Shown here: positions 61,012 to 64,000 of the stretch, piece after piece | Layout of the letters: every line of letters starts with the position of its first letter | How positions within the stretch are numbered: position 1 is the stretch's first letter | NCBI GenBank assembly: GCA_934102055.1 | Contig: CAKOSE010000001.1 | Coordinates: 53,740 to 117,739 of the forward strand | Length of the DNA: 64,000 nt | Direction of reading: 5' to 3' | From: an uncultured Bacilli bacterium | GTDB lineage: Bacteria > Bacillota_I > Bacilli_A > RF39 > UBA660 | Translations under genes and position numbers: made by a program | Notes under the pieces: generated by a model | Told to the model about the DNA's origin: nothing | Databases searched by the model: none | Seen by the model: the letters and a program-made list of their open reading frames with translations, nothing else

Positions 61012-62136
61012 TTACTCGTTAACTGGTAGTTCCCATTTTTTTATGTTCTTGTTTTTATTTTTGAGTCTTTTATAATTAATAAGTTTTTCCAGTTGCTTTT
61101 TCTTTCCAATTTCATCAGGTATTTGTTGTCCTAAAAACTGTGTTTTCCCGTTTCCTTCGACTATTACTACTTCACCTTTGTCATTGATTGCAACATCCCA
61201 ACCTATGTATCTTGTTTTGTCAAACGCTAGTGCTGCTTTTTTGGCTACATTTATTACTTCTTGCCATTTTGGTATTTGAAAGCCTTTAAATCTAATATTG
61301 GTATCTGGATGAAACTCATAAACTATATTTGTTTCATCTTTGCCATCAGTAATTATAATACCAGTTTCTGGATCTATCATAGCTAGTATTCCTCCGTCTC
61401 CACCATTATCTACAAATGAAGATCCTTGTCCTACTTTTATAAATGGTAAATGAATAAAGACATTATCTTTCTCATCTCTATACGTTACTATTCTTAAAGT
61501 GTTAAGGGATTCTGGATGCAAAGAAGCTGTTTCTTTACACTGGATAATTCTTTCTTCTAGTATTACTTCACCGTCTCTTAAAATATAATTAAACATGTCT
61601 TTTATGCTATCATATTCAGAGAAATCTATCAGTTCTATTCCAGAACCAAAAGATGATGAAATAGGTTTTTTAACGAATTGATTATGTTTATGTACGAAAT
61701 TTTCAAAATCTTTATAATCATTTACTCCTATTTTTATCATATCTCTTTTGTAAAATTTCTTTAAAAGTTCGTAAGTTTTATATTTATCATTTAAAGTTTG
61801 TTGTCCTTCTATTTGTCCTAACAAATACAAATAGTTTTGTCTATCTCTATTAATTATAAATTTCTTTCTTTGAAAATGATTTTTGTTTTTAAATCCAAAC
61901 AAGAAATATTCCTTAAATGATAAATTATAATGTGCTCTGCAATAACTCATATCATTTTTAAAGTATTTTTTTTCTGCACTTGATAAATTATGTTTATTTG
62001 TATATGTATCTATTGTTTCATTTATAACTTTTTTTCTTATTTCATTTGAGCATTGATACATTTTTTTTAAAATAAATGGTTTGAAGATAATTGATTTTCT
62101 AGCAAGTCCCATTATAATTTTCTTTTTTGTTACCAT
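61012..62136 (-). CDS. TupA-like sugar-transfer-associated ATP-grasp protein (1 of 3)
   Basis: ATP-grasp core ...GSGIELIDF...LRIVTYRD...VDNGGDGGILAMIDPETG...WDVAI. Confidence 0.6.
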   Translation of the reverse strand: MVTKKKIIMGLARKSIIFKPFILKKMYQCSNEIRKKVINETIDTYTNKHNLSSAEKKYFKNDMSYCRAHYNLSFKEYFLFGFKNKNHFQRKKFIINRDRQNYLYLLGQIEGQQTLNDKYKTYELLKKFYKRDMIKIGVNDYKDFENFVHKHNQFVKKPISSSFGSGIELIDFSEYDSIKDMFNYILRDGEVILEERIIQCKETASLHPESLNTLRIVTYRDEKDNVFIHLPFIKVGQGSSFVDNGGDGGILAMIDPETGIIITDGKDETNIVYEFHPDTNIRFKGFQIPKWQEVINVAKKAALAFDKTRYIGWDVAINDKGEVVIVEGNGKTQFLGQQIPDEIGKKKQLEKLINYKRLKNKNKNIKKWELPVNE

Positions 62137-62163
62137 ATTATAACTCCCATCGATTATTTTATT

Positions 62164-63231
62164 TTATTTTATTAAATGATGATATCTATAAAAGTCTCCT
62201 AAAGGTTTATTTTTTTGTCCACCCCATAACTGAAGAATATTTATACCTGAAGAGGCATTTGCTTCTATGATGCACATACCTTTTTCTGTTAAAAGTACAT
62301 CCCATGCAACAAAGTTTAAATATGGAAATTTATTAGCTAAGTCAACTATTTCACGTTTTATTTTATTCCAACCTGGAATTTTAACTCCTTCTATAGGACG
62401 TTTACTATCAGGATGTATCTTATAAGTCTTTGTGTTGTGCAGACATTTAGCAGCACTTAATTCACCTGTTTCTAAATCCACCTTGGCAACAAGACCTCCT
62501 TGACTACCGTTATCAACAGGTATTGTATTGAAAGTGCCTATTCTTTGAACGGCAAAATAAAGGATAAATTTTTCAGTTTTTGGATCTTTAAAGGTTACTA
62601 GTCTAAGAGTATTAGAAGTTTTATCATAAAGATTATTTAAATATTCATTTTGTTTTACTGTTTCACAAACAAAATAGTTTTTTTCTTTTTCAAAATACTT
62701 TAGAATTTCATTTCTAGTTGTTTCTTTTTCATTTATAAAATACTTTTTATTTAGATACTCAAAAGTAGCTACACCATTACCTTTTCCACTATCTATAGGT
62801 TTTAAATATAAACTATTATTTTTTTCTAAGAATTGTACTAGATCCTCAGTAGTATTTATATTTTCACCAAAATTAGCGATAGATTTATTTTGTTTTAGAC
62901 AATATATTGCAGGAACATATATGTATTGTTTTAAAAGTTCAGTAGTCACTATTTTATTGTTTAAAATGAATTTGTAATTGCCATTAATGTATCTTGATTT
63001 ATACCAATCAAATTCTGACAAGTATTCTTTTTTTCTTTTATGATTAAGTTTATATAGTACTACTTGGTCTCCGATGTATCCGCCGTTAATGTTCCAATAA
63101 ATTCTCTTGAAAAAAGGAACTTTCATATGAGATTTAGCAAATAAAATTCTAACAATCCATAAAAGGGCTAATCTTGCTTTTCTCCCTAAATAATCATTGG
63201 TTCTTCTTAAAAATTTCATCATAATTATCAC
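62164..63231 (-). CDS. TupA-like ATP-grasp protein (2 of 3)
   Basis: Paralogous motifs LRLVTFKD...VDNGSQGGLVAKVDLETG...WDVLL. Confidence 0.6.
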   Translation of the reverse strand: MIIMMKFLRRTNDYLGRKARLALLWIVRILFAKSHMKVPFFKRIYWNINGGYIGDQVVLYKLNHKRKKEYLSEFDWYKSRYINGNYKFILNNKIVTTELLKQYIYVPAIYCLKQNKSIANFGENINTTEDLVQFLEKNNSLYLKPIDSGKGNGVATFEYLNKKYFINEKETTRNEILKYFEKEKNYFVCETVKQNEYLNNLYDKTSNTLRLVTFKDPKTEKFILYFAVQRIGTFNTIPVDNGSQGGLVAKVDLETGELSAAKCLHNTKTYKIHPDSKRPIEGVKIPGWNKIKREIVDLANKFPYLNFVAWDVLLTEKGMCIIEANASSGINILQLWGGQKNKPLGDFYRYHHLIK

Positions 63232-64000
63232 CTTTTCTCTCTTCGATCAATAAATTTAAATAATTTATGTGGCATATGTTTATCATATCCATATATTTTC
63301 TTTTTTTGTTCTATTTTATATAATAAATACTTTATGGAATGTGGCTTCAACTTATCTATTTTCATATAATCAGGATACCTATTTATTTCTGGAAATTTAA
63401 TTCCATTATCTGTAATAGATACGTCAAAACCAAAGTATTCAATTTGTTCAAAGAAACTGGAAATTTCTTTTATGTCATTTAAAATTTTTTTCCAATCAGG
63501 TATAGATCCTTCGATAGGGACATGCGTATCTGGGTGTTCCTTGCAGGATGTTATTTTTAAATCATCTGTTATTATTAATGCATCATGGAAAATACCTGTT
63601 TCTTCATCGATAGTAACATTAATTCCACCAGCTCCAATATTATCAACGGTACCAGTTTTACTTGAACCGAATCTCATGTAAATATTTCCAATTTCAGGAG
63701 TTTTGCCATCTGCTTTAAAAACTATTACTCTCATTGTGTTAACGGAGCCGGCATATATTTTATTTATAAAATCACTCTGTTTAATATACTCAGTCACTAA
63801 ATACTCATTATTTTTATCCGATAATATATTGATAATATCTTGTTCAGTGGCTTCATTTAAATTTAAGTATAGTTTATTGTTTTTATAGCTTACTCTATAA
63901 AAACCTTCTCCGTGAGAACCATTATCTCTTTTTAATGCTATATCTCCTTCTTTTTTTATTAAATTAAATATATCTCTATAAGTGTTTTTATACCCACTTG
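63228..64000 (-). CDS. TupA-like ATP-grasp protein (3 of 3), N-terminus beyond the window
   Basis: Motifs MRVIVFK...VDNIGAGGINVTIDEETG...FDVSI. The frame stays open upstream of the annotated GTG to position 64000. Confidence 0.55.
   Translation of the reverse strand, partial: SGYKNTYRDIFNLIKKEGDIALKRDNGSHGEGFYRVSYKNNKLYLNLNEATEQDIINILSDKNNEYLVTEYIKQSDFINKIYAGSVNTMRVIVFKADGKTPEIGNIYMRFGSSKTGTVDNIGAGGINVTIDEETGIFHDALIITDDLKITSCKEHPDTHVPIEGSIPDWKKILNDIKEISSFFEQIEYFGFDVSITDNGIKFPEINRYPDYMKIDKLKPHSIKYLLYKIEQKKKIYGYDKHMPHKLFKFIDRREKR

What the first reader, a model, noticed from the sequence alone, without database searches (positions are those of the whole stretch)
61012..64000. Three tandem paralogous TupA-like ATP-grasp genes
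Three consecutive genes share the same core with diverged specificity regions: K/R-P-x-S/D-GxG near the N-terminus, LR-V/I-VT-F/Y-K/R-D, VDN-G-x-x-GG-x-x-A/V-x-D-x-ETG, and WDV/FDV at the end. The second and third overlap by 4 nt. Tandem triplication suggests three different acyl or amino-acid substituents, or sequential ligations, on the same polymer. ATP-grasp ligases inside teichoic-acid-type loci are poorly characterised.
Basis: partly seen in the sequence, partly recalled or inferred. Interest (0 to 1): 0.55.

Follow-up and report, generated by a model that had tools for sequence, protein, structure and literature searches.

The report
Three ATP-grasp ligases in teichoic-acid locus
Three neighbouring genes at the head of a cell-wall teichoic-acid operon of an uncultured gut Firmicute encode intact but anciently diverged ATP-dependent ligases of an uncharacterised, already catalogued family; they most likely attach amino acids or a short peptide to the wall polymer.

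Summary
Three consecutive minus-strand genes (61012-62136, 62164-63222/63231, 63228 to the window end) are paralogues with 28-29% identity. All three keep every family-invariant ATP-grasp residue.

Four corrections:
1. The family is Pfam PF14397 (sugar-transfer associated ATP-grasp), not TupA-like PF14305.
2. This is not a local triplication. The three copies belong to three ancient subfamilies (bootstrap 99.5-100%), each with orthologues in distant genomes. Arrays of 2-6 such genes are the norm (median 3 per locus).
3. The third gene is cut by the window. An identical public contig shows a 793-aa protein whose N-terminal half is a catalytically dead fourth copy.
4. The 4-nt overlap depends on a GTG start. 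An ATG with a good ribosome-binding site gives a 5-nt spacer.

The trio is a variable accessory cassette in a hypervariable wall-teichoic-acid slot between xseB and spoIVB. A close relative keeps the ribitol-phosphate genes but has no ATP-grasp genes.

Related loci add MurF-like ligases, PGA_cap/MslH-like epimerases and amino-acid enzymes. This points to amino-acid or peptide decoration made in the cytoplasm before TagGH export. Substrates are unknown, and I found no characterised member of the family. Verdict: a new member of a known, predicted kind, of moderate interest.

The parts
61012..62136 (-). G1, ATP-grasp ligase of family PF14397 (374 aa), subfamily 'G1'
   Evidence: Pfam E 5.7e-50, 170.5 bits against a cut-off of 31.4. 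All 16 family-invariant residues are kept. The AlphaFold2 model has pLDDT 95.3, and the best solved folds are RimK, PsnB, Ddl and ArgX. The G1 clade has 99.5% bootstrap support.
62164..63222 (-). G2, ATP-grasp ligase of family PF14397 (352 aa from the ATG at 63222; 355 aa if the GTG at 63231 is used), subfamily 'G2'
   Evidence: Pfam E 3.3e-41. Catalytic residues are intact. The G2 clade has 100% bootstrap support, with orthologues in Bacilli, Clostridia and Eggerthellaceae loci.
63228..64000 (-). G3, the C-terminal 256 codons of a 793-aa two-domain protein: an active PF14397 ATP-grasp domain. The N-terminal dead copy lies beyond the window end, at about window-equivalent 64400-65609
   Evidence: The frame is open to the window end. 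Pfam E 1.1e-32. The full gene is L001:6528-8909 on a contig identical to the window. The N half is 24% identical to the C half, E 2e-20. The N half has lost K118, K157, the G-loop, N212, R215, H276, D314, E327 and N329. The G3C clade has 100% bootstrap support.
59510..61000 (-). GT2 glycosyltransferase (496 aa), 11 nt downstream of G1
   Evidence: PF00535 E 2.9e-33. G1-type genes are followed by a GT2 in L013, L014, L016, L021, L023, L025, L028 and L051.
57453..59329 (-). Two paralogous near-orphan genes (305 and 315 aa) inserted between the GT2 and the TagF-like gene. They are probably not needed by the ATP-grasp trio
   Evidence: 41% identical, E 2e-81. No family match. Only 25 relatives in 1.84 billion representative proteins. 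Absent from L013, which has the trio.
56291..57442 (-). TagB/TarB/TarF-like CDP-alditol phosphotransferase (383 aa), part of the constant core
   Evidence: PF04464 E 2.3e-52. The best NCBIfam match is TarB, E 4.4e-35, below cut-off. Present in every variant of the slot.
55671..56282 (-). Small nucleotidyltransferase (203 aa), part of the constant core. It presumably makes the CDP-activated donor for the TagF-like enzyme
   Evidence: Weak NTP_transf_3/IspD match. The AlphaFold2 model has pLDDT 89, and the nearest folds are PntC, LicC, MurU and inositol-1-P cytidylyltransferase. There are 993 homologues, and the top 120 are all at least 63% identical.
54129..55738 (-). TagG (permease) and TagH (ATPase) ABC exporter
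   Evidence: PF01061 and PF00005.
49683..54110 (-). TarI (ribitol-5-P cytidylyltransferase), TarJ-like reductase and a GT2::TagF-like fusion (904 aa): the ribitol-phosphate branch
   Evidence: NF001183, 357 bits against a cut-off of 166, for TarI. ADH domains, and PF04464 plus PF00535 in the fusion.
43934..49640 (-). CapE/F/G-like (FnlABC-like) 6-deoxy-N-acetylhexosamine genes (the first is frameshifted) and a triple-GT2 protein. This is the distal end of the locus, next to spoIVB
   Evidence: Pfam matches. The frameshift is shown.

Best explanation
G1, G2 and the C-terminal domain of G3 are three catalytically competent, non-redundant ATP-grasp carboxylate ligases of family PF14397. Together they form an accessory 'decoration' cassette at the 5' end of a wall-teichoic-acid operon.

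Shown: the fold, the intact ATP/Mg2+ site, the subfamily structure, the locus context, and the presence/absence behaviour of the cassette.

Inferred mechanism:
1. Each enzyme binds Mg-ATP and phosphorylates a carboxylate to an acyl-phosphate. The carboxylate is most likely that of an amino acid or of a growing peptide.
2. The acyl group is then passed to an amine or hydroxyl nucleophile on the undecaprenyl-linked polymer, or on the previously added residue.
3. This happens at the cytoplasmic face of the membrane, before TagGH exports the chain.
4. Because the three belong to different ancient subfamilies, each performs a different ligation step, with a different amino acid and/or acceptor.
5. 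G3 and G2 usually travel together. They need nothing more than the TagF-like, nucleotidyltransferase and TagGH core, so their acceptor is made by that core (an alditol-phosphate unit or the linkage unit).
6. G1-type enzymes usually sit next to a GT2, so G1 probably works on the sugar branch.
7. The dead N-terminal copy in G3 is retained as a non-catalytic partner domain, as a pseudo-dimer or substrate scaffold.
For: Family and fold:
- PF14397 hits at E 1e-32 to 6e-50.
- The G1 model has pLDDT 95.3. The nearest solved folds are RimK, PsnB, Ddl, ArgX and BacD, all carboxylate-amine/hydroxyl ligases.
- The family profile finds TTLL7, GshAB and RimK in the PDB.

Active site:
- All three keep K118, K157, G164, G166, E195, Q199, N212, R215, D243, N244, G248, G249, H276, D314, E327 and N329 (G1 numbering).
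- The G3 N half lost about 13 of these 16.

Non-redundancy:
- Clades G1, G2 and G3C have 99.5, 100 and 100% bootstrap support.
- Identity between clades is 21-27%. Identity within clades is 52-60%.

Context:
- One uninterrupted minus-strand operon with GT2, TagF-like, TarI/J and TagG/H genes, and no terminator-like site on that strand.

Accessory cassette in the same xseB-spoIVB slot:
- L053 keeps GT2, TagF, the nucleotidyltransferase, TagGH, TarIJ and GT2::TagF, with no ATP-grasp.
- L054 has G3, G2, two more ATP-grasps and only TagF, the nucleotidyltransferase and TagGH.
- L055 has yet another mix.

Amino-acid/peptide chemistry in related loci:
- MurF-like ligase, inserted between G2 and G1 in L014/L015.
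- PGA_cap/MslH-like epimerase.
- SbnB-like, AlaDH-like and asparagine-synthase-like enzymes.
- Extra Ddl-like ATP-grasps.
- PGA_cap::ATP-grasp and ATPgrasp_ST::TupA fusions.

Precedent:
- Cj1438C, an ATP-grasp fused to a GT2, amidates the growing capsule chain before the next sugar is added (PMC11800379).
- Linked ATP-grasp ligases typically catalyse successive ligations (PMC4431377).
Against: - No member of PF14397 was found to be biochemically characterised. Donor, acceptor and bond type are all inferred.
- The window's locus shows no gene that would supply a carboxylated sugar such as a uronic acid, and no racemase or amino-acid biosynthesis gene. The acceptor chemistry therefore stays open.
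- The G3-G2 pairing is not absolute: L055 and L017-L020 have G2 without a G3-type protein.
- GT2_496 occurs without G1 in L053.
- The single nucleotidyltransferase::G3 fusion (L052) comes from one metagenome-assembled genome only.
- Expression is not shown.
Confidence: 0.6

Rival explanations
1. The three genes are TupA-like (PF14305) amidoligases. Like Cj1438C, they would amidate the C6 carboxylate of a uronic acid in the polymer with an amino acid or amino alcohol.
For: They share the superfamily and the general context of an ATP-grasp next to a GT2 in a surface-glycan locus. ATPgrasp_ST and TupA domains can be fused in one protein (L052). Generic GT2 similarity to TuaG and glucuronosyltransferases, all far below cut-off.
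Against: There is no PF14305 match even at E<=10. hhalign of the family profile against a true TupA domain gives E 0.19. No UDP-sugar dehydrogenase or other uronic-acid gene is present in the locus or anywhere in the 64-kb window. L054 has G3 and G2 with no glycosyltransferase at all.
Confidence: 0.12
2. The array is a recent in-locus tandem triplication whose copies are redundant or decaying.
For: The three genes share a family, are adjacent and lie on the same strand. One extra copy, the G3 N half, really is degenerate.
Against: Pairwise identity is only 28-29%. The three copies are monophyletic in 0 of 200 bootstraps, and each groups with orthologues from other orders and phyla. All catalytic residues are kept in all three. 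The same G3-G2-G1 order is conserved at 67-84% protein identity in L014/L015.
Confidence: 0.03
3. The enzymes do not decorate a pre-made polymer. Instead they build the main chain themselves: RimK-like processive or stepwise synthesis of a poly-amino-acid or peptide on a teichoic-acid-type lipid-linked primer, exported by TagGH (a 'teichopeptide').
For: RimK is the best structural match. The minimal locus L054 contains only a 369-aa primase-sized TagF-like enzyme, the nucleotidyltransferase, TagGH and four ATP-grasp proteins. PGA_cap and MurF-like genes occur in sister loci.
Against: The window's own locus has a full ribitol-phosphate polymer set (TarI, TarJ, GT2::TagF) that also exists without any ATP-grasp in L053. 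TM-scores to RimK are only 0.45-0.56. There is no evidence of processivity.
Confidence: 0.15
4. They are YheC/YheD-like sporulation proteins that act on the spore coat or crust rather than on the vegetative wall polymer.
For: PF14398 matches just above cut-off, 29-33 bits against 26.8. The organism has sporulation genes, and the locus abuts spoIVB.
Against: PF14397 scores are 4-6 times higher on the same residues. The genes are co-oriented and tightly packed with TagF, TagGH and TarIJ genes. Relatives occur in the non-sporulating Eggerthellaceae and Parvimonas.
Confidence: 0.05

Closest known systems
Pfam PF14397 'Sugar-transfer associated ATP-grasp' (ATPgrasp_ST). From my own knowledge, it was defined computationally by Iyer, Abhiman, Burroughs & Aravind, Mol Biosyst 2009; the paper could not be opened here
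   Same: All three proteins score far above the family's gathering cut-off. They are linked to glycosyltransferases, as the family name implies. NCBI already names a 67% relative 'sugar-transfer associated ATP-grasp domain-containing protein'.
   Different: Nothing differs at the family level. New here are the subfamily structure, the dead fused copy, the teichoic-acid (TagGH) context and the cassette behaviour. The family has no characterised member or solved structure that I could find.
Cj1438 C-terminal domain of Campylobacter jejuni HS:2, a TupA-like ATP-grasp amidoligase (PMC11800379)
   Same: It is an ATP-grasp enzyme in a surface-glycan locus, coupled to a GT2. It acts in the cytoplasm on the growing chain, and its product is exported by an ABC transporter.
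   Different: It belongs to a different Pfam family (PF14305). Its carboxylate is GlcA C6 and its amine is serinol-P or ethanolamine-P. Here no uronic-acid gene is visible, and the polymer is a Gram-positive teichoic-acid type.
RimK (poly-alpha-L-glutamate ligase), and the LysX/ArgX, Ddl and PsnB ATP-grasp ligases
   Same: These are the best structural matches. They share the Lys, Gly-loop and Asp/Glu-x-Asn ATP-Mg site.
   Different: Sequence identity is only 12-17% and TM-scores are 0.36-0.57. The canonical alpha/beta N-domain is replaced by an all-helical region of about 130 residues. TIGR02291 scores 36-42 bits against a cut-off of 314. RimK modifies a protein, not a glycopolymer.
Bacillus halodurans TupA and teichuronopeptide (own knowledge; Aono et al.)
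   Same: The concept is the same: an ATP-grasp protein linked to a wall polymer that carries amino acids.
   Different: TupA founds PF14305, which these proteins do not match. To my knowledge TupA's own reaction has not been demonstrated.
DltABCD D-alanylation of teichoic acids (own knowledge)
   Same: The possible outcome is the same: amino-acid substituents on teichoic acid that change surface charge and phage or antimicrobial-peptide interactions.
   Different: The enzymes are unrelated (adenylating enzyme, carrier protein, MBOAT). Dlt acts outside the membrane after export. The route proposed here would be ATP-grasp based and cytoplasmic.

Membership tests
ATP-grasp superfamily | ATP-grasp fold | tested here: met
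   The G1 AlphaFold2 model (pLDDT 95.3) gives 487 PDB matches at E<=0.001, and the listed top 50 are ATP-grasp enzymes led by RimK, PsnB and Ddl. HMM matches to ATP-grasp families for all three. G2 and G3 were not modelled.
ATP-grasp superfamily | Conserved ATP-phosphate Lys residues, Gly-rich loop, and the Mg2+-binding Asp...Glu-x-Asn motif | tested here: met
   K118, K157, G164-x-G166, E195, R215, D314 and E327-x-N329 are present in G1, G2 and G3C, and absent from the G3 N half. These positions are invariant in 75 family members. K118 of G3 lies outside the window and was read from the identical contig L001.
ATP-grasp superfamily | ATP-dependent ligation through an acyl-phosphate intermediate | not testable with these tools
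   Needs enzyme assays.
Pfam PF14397 ATPgrasp_ST | Score above the curated gathering cut-off (31.4 bits) over most of the model | tested here: met
   170.5, 141.8 and 113.8 bits, covering model positions 15-275, 6-265 and 57-276 of 278.
Pfam PF14397 ATPgrasp_ST | Genomic association with sugar transferases or surface-polysaccharide genes | tested here: met
   A GT2 lies 11 nt downstream, followed by TagF-like, TagGH and TarIJ genes. Relatives have the same association plus Bac_transf, Wzx, Wzy and LCP genes.
   No match at E<=10 for any of the three. Positive control: the L052 protein matches at E 3.5e-34. hhalign of the family profile against that TupA domain gives E 0.19.
RimK / alpha-L-glutamate ligase (PF08443, TIGR02291) | Match above the curated cut-off | tested here: not met
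   TIGR02291 scores 36-42 bits against a cut-off of 314, over the C-terminal part only. No PF08443 match. The similarity is structural only.
YheC/YheD-like ATP-grasp (PF14398) | Best-scoring family on the domain | tested here: not met
   Scores of 29-33 bits are just above the 26.8 cut-off, but PF14397 outscores it 4-6 fold on the same residues.
Wall-teichoic-acid biosynthesis locus (context) | CDP-alditol phosphotransferase(s), CDP-ribitol synthesis (TarI/TarJ) and a TagG/TagH ABC exporter in one operon | tested here: met
   PF04464 twice, NF001183 TarI above cut-off, ADH-type TarJ-like reductase, PF01061 and PF00005. TagO, TagA and an LCP ligase were not seen in the window.

The most novel reading that the evidence does not exclude
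Gut Firmicutes use arrays of PF14397 ATP-grasp ligases to aminoacylate teichoic-acid precursors, or to build short peptides on them, inside the cell. In sister loci these arrays are helped by MurF-like ligases and PGA_cap-type epimerases, so the peptides may contain D-amino acids. This would be a Dlt-independent, non-ribosomal and non-Mur route to 'peptido-teichoic acids'. Swapping cassettes of ligase subfamilies in the xseB-spoIVB slot would then generate strain-level surface (serotype or phage-receptor) diversity.
Probability: 0.2. Interest if true: 0.7.

Novelty: new member of a known kind. Interest (0 to 1): 0.38.

Why it matters
Wall teichoic acids of gut commensals are almost unstudied chemically. 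The only well-understood way to put amino acids on teichoic acids is the extracellular Dlt system. This locus and its relatives show that many gut and rumen Firmicutes, and some Eggerthellaceae, carry 2-6 intact ATP-grasp ligases inside teichoic-acid or polysaccharide operons. These sit in a slot that varies between close relatives.

If the enzymes do add amino acids or peptides, they define a large, uncharacterised class of surface modifications. Such modifications would bear on phage host range, immune recognition and surface charge. Natural variants with and without the cassette give a ready-made comparison.

As it stands, the finding is a correctly spotted but routine annotation. Standard pipelines already name the family, and no new mechanism is demonstrated.

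Tried and rejected
- Look-up of the GTG-start G2 product found nothing. The ATG-start product was found.
I repeated it with close orthologues.
- The homologue search with the window fragment of G3 returned only fragments and not the 793-aa protein.
- Sequence searches of the PDB with G1 and G2 gave only noise. A profile was needed.
- Rfam found nothing in the window.
- The promoter/terminator scan was uninformative: 74 promoter-like sites against 85.6 expected, and no minus-strand terminator.
- The first bootstrap run used the Kimura distance, which fails above about 85% difference and gave meaningless support values. I repeated it with a Poisson distance.
- Literature searches for PF14397/ATPgrasp_ST, or for ATP-grasp enzymes in teichoic-acid or polysaccharide loci, found no characterised member. 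The Iyer et al. 2009 paper is not held.
- I first took the synteny TagF-nucleotidyltransferase-G2-G3 and the nucleotidyltransferase::G3 fusion (L052) as evidence that G2 and G3 act on the CDP-activated small molecule. I downgraded this after finding that the nucleotidyltransferase and TagF-like gene are the constant core, present even where no ATP-grasp exists (L053).
- The fold search for the nucleotidyltransferase did not identify its substrate. PntC, LicC, MurU, inositol-1-P cytidylyltransferase and RmlA all match at TM about 0.6.
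Full report
**What is there.**
Three co-oriented minus-strand ORFs lie between 61012 and the window end:
- G1, 61012-62136, 374 aa.
- G2, 62164-63231 from a GTG, or 62164-63222 from an ATG.
- G3, which begins with its stop codon at 63228. Its frame stays open to base 63998.

All three match one Pfam model, PF14397 'Sugar-transfer associated ATP-grasp', at E 5.7e-50, 3.3e-41 and 1.1e-32. The scores are 114-171 bits against a cut-off of 31.4.

**Corrections to the observation.**
(i) The K-P-x-x-G-x-G motif is at about residue 157, not near the N-terminus.

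(ii) G3 is cut by the window. A public human-gut metagenome contig (L001) is identical to the window over 12,000 of 12,000 compared bases. It shows a 793-aa product that starts 12 nt after xseB.

(iii) The 4-nt overlap (GTGA) needs the GTG start. The ATG at 63222 is preceded at 5 nt by GGTGAT and is the start in all public gene calls. A product starting at the GTG is not on record. A 5-nt spacer, with the ribosome-binding site overlapping the G3 stop codon, is more likely.

**A hidden fourth copy.**
The N-terminal 400 residues of the 793-aa G3 protein align with its C-terminal half over the whole length (24% identity, E 2e-20). Pfam does not recognise this half.

In a joint alignment, G1, G2 and G3C keep all 16 positions that are invariant or nearly so in 75 family members: K118, K157, G164, G166, E195, Q199, N212, R215, D243, N244, G248, G249, H276, D314, E327 and N329 in G1 numbering. 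The N half has lost about 13 of them, and an acidic/lysine-rich insert replaces its Gly-Gly loop.

The dead half evolves faster than the live half (52% against 79% identity to the L014 orthologue, and 27% against 49% to L031). It is nevertheless retained at full length across distant genomes. That pattern fits a non-catalytic partner domain.

**Family.**
None of the three matches PF14305 (TupA-like), even at E<=10. The same tool finds a true TupA domain in a related locus at E 3.5e-34. A profile of the present family against that TupA domain gives hhalign E 0.19.

RimK-type models are matched only far below cut-off (TIGR02291, 36-42 bits against 314). YheC/D (PF14398) is matched marginally and is outscored 4-6 fold.

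No solved structure is detectable by sequence. A family profile finds TTLL7, GshAB and RimK weakly.

An AlphaFold2 model of G1 is confident (pLDDT 95.3, pTM 0.91). Its nearest solved folds are RimK (E 3e-8, TM 0.45-0.56), PsnB, Ddl, ArgX/LysX and BacD, all carboxylate-amine or carboxylate-hydroxyl ligases. The first 130 or so residues are all-helical, in place of the usual alpha/beta N-domain.

**Not a local triplication.**
A scan of one genome per GTDB species with G1 orthologues returned 40 loci, from Bacilli, Clostridia (Lachnospiraceae, Oscillospiraceae, Ruminococcus, Anaerovoracaceae, Parvimonas) and Eggerthellaceae.
- Of the 40 loci, 28 have at least two PF14397 domains, 25 have at least three and 12 have at least four. 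The median is 3.
- In a neighbour-joining tree of 112 domains with 200 bootstraps, the G1, G2 and G3C clades are supported at 99.5, 100 and 100%. G2+G3C, together with one further sequence, form a clade at 99.5%. The three window copies never group together.
- Identity is 21-27% between clades and 52-60% within them.
- The order G3-G2-G1-GT2 is conserved in L013 (95% identical) and in L014/L015 (66-84% identical). In L014/L015 a MurF-like ligase with BspA repeats is inserted between G2 and G1.

**Context.**
Downstream on the same strand, with short gaps and no terminator-like site, the genes run in this order:
1. A GT2 glycosyltransferase.
2. Two near-orphan paralogues.
3. A TarB/TarF-like phosphotransferase.
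4. A small nucleotidyltransferase.
5. TagG and TagH.
6. TarI (above its NCBIfam cut-off) and a TarJ-like reductase.
7. A GT2::TagF-like fusion.
8. CapE/F/G-like genes.
9. A triple-GT2 protein.
10. spoIVB, which closes the locus.

The rest of the window is housekeeping. No uronic-acid, racemase or amino-acid biosynthesis gene is visible in the window.

**The trio is a swappable cassette.**
Relatives found through the nucleotidyltransferase carry the same xseB-spoIVB slot with a constant core (TagF-like, nucleotidyltransferase, TagG, TagH) and variable extras:
- L053 has GT2, the core, TarIJ and GT2::TagF, with no ATP-grasp at all.
- L054 has G3, G2, two further PF14397 genes and only the core.
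- L055 has a MurF-like ligase, a G1-like gene, PGA_cap, G2, the core, another PF14397 gene and an acyltransferase.

Two conclusions follow:
- The ATP-grasp genes are accessory.
- G3 and G2 need nothing beyond what the core makes.

This finding made me withdraw an earlier idea. I had thought, from the TagF-nucleotidyltransferase-G2-G3 synteny (L036, L048, L049, L052) and from a single nucleotidyltransferase::G3 fusion (L052), that G2 and G3 work on the nucleotidyltransferase's small-molecule substrate.

The nucleotidyltransferase models well (pLDDT 89). It resembles PntC, LicC, MurU and inositol-1-P cytidylyltransferases without revealing its substrate.

**What the enzymes most likely do.**
The related loci repeatedly add enzymes of amino-acid and peptide chemistry:
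- MurF-like ligases.
- PGA_cap proteins whose best curated match is the lasso-peptide C-terminal epimerase MslH.
- SbnB-like, alanine-dehydrogenase-like and asparagine-synthase-like proteins.
- Extra Ddl-like ATP-grasps.
- PGA_cap::ATP-grasp and ATPgrasp_ST::TupA fusions.

Two published observations are relevant. Linked ATP-grasp ligases usually catalyse successive ligations (PMC4431377). Cj1438C amidates the growing Campylobacter capsule chain before the next GT2 acts (PMC11800379).

Putting these together, the best reading is three distinct ATP-dependent ligation steps that place amino acids or a short peptide on the lipid-linked teichoic-acid precursor in the cytoplasm, before TagGH export.

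Which parts are shown and which inferred:
- Shown: fold, intact active sites, subfamilies, context and cassette behaviour.
- Inferred: donors, acceptors, bond type (amide or ester) and order of action.

**Comparison with the known, and verdict.**
The genes are ordinary members of a catalogued, computationally predicted family. NCBI already names a 67% relative accordingly. I found no characterised member of this family.

The new points are modest:
- The subfamily structure.
- The pseudo-enzyme fusion in G3.
- The teichoic-acid/TagGH setting.
- The hypervariable slot.

Verdict: observation confirmed, interpretation partly supported, a new member of a known kind, moderate interest (0.38). The most novel reading not excluded is a Dlt-independent cytoplasmic route to peptide-bearing teichoic acids that drives strain-level surface diversity. 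I give it a probability of about 0.2.

Noticed in passing
window 57453-59329 (-): Two paralogous genes (305 and 315 aa, 41% identical) have no Pfam or NCBIfam family; there is only a weak Zn-dependent phospholipase C hint at E 0.004. An exhaustive search of 1.84 billion representative proteins found only 25 relatives at E<=1e-3, and only 6 at E<=1e-10. They are absent from the closest genome (L013) and from L053-L055, so they look like a strain-specific insertion in the teichoic-acid operon.
   Followed up: partly
window about 49398-49640 and 48615-49397 (-): The capE/fnlA-like dehydratase gene is frameshifted. An A-run near 49458 is one base shorter than in L013 (AAGAAAC against AAGAAAAC). 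This puts the N-terminal Rossmann motif (TGGTGSFG) in another frame. It could be a pseudogene, phase variation or an assembly error.
   Followed up: partly
L001:6528-7730 (beyond the window end, about window-equivalent 64400-65609): The N-terminal half of the 793-aa G3 protein is a catalytically dead ATP-grasp copy that Pfam does not detect. It is retained across distant genomes while evolving faster than the active half.
   Followed up: yes
L053, L054, L055 compared with window 43934-64000: The chromosomal slot between xseB and spoIVB is a hypervariable wall-polymer locus in this lineage. The core (TagF-like, nucleotidyltransferase, TagG, TagH) is constant. Zero to four ATP-grasp genes and other modules swap in and out.
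   Followed up: partly
window 55671-56282 (-): A 203-aa nucleotidyltransferase has no Pfam match above cut-off. It belongs to a large and unusually conserved unnamed family: 993 hits, with the top 120 all at least 63% identical. Its fold is nearest to PntC, LicC and MurU. The substrate is unknown. It may stand in for TagD as the source of the CDP-activated donor.
   Followed up: partly
L052:2553-5762 and L052:6854-10462; L041:3018-6581; L019:8615-10921: Fusion proteins occur in related loci: nucleotidyltransferase::dead ATP-grasp::active ATP-grasp (1069 aa), ATPgrasp_ST::TupA-like ATP-grasp (1202 aa), PGA_cap::ATPgrasp_ST (1187 aa), and a double active ATPgrasp_ST (768 aa).
   Followed up: partly
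L014:7968-9971, L015:7948-9951, L055:1368-3374, L053:1-902: A MurF-like peptide ligase fused to BspA-type leucine-rich repeats recurs in or next to these loci. In L014/L015 it sits exactly between the G2 and G1 orthologues.
   Followed up: no
L013 (CAVFIB010000003.1): The closest genome record (95% identical G1) is titled 'Bacteroidaceae bacterium'. Its locus content, the sporulation genes in the window's own genome, and the next relatives ('Bacilli bacterium') all indicate a low-GC Firmicute, so the metagenome bin is probably mislabelled.
   Followed up: no
window 26511-29136 (+), 30610-32520 (-), 2347-3693 (+): Other surface-related genes are present in the window: a SpaA-type pilin with thioester domain plus a sortase, an LtaS-like sulfatase-family protein, and a BspA-type leucine-rich-repeat protein.
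   Followed up: no
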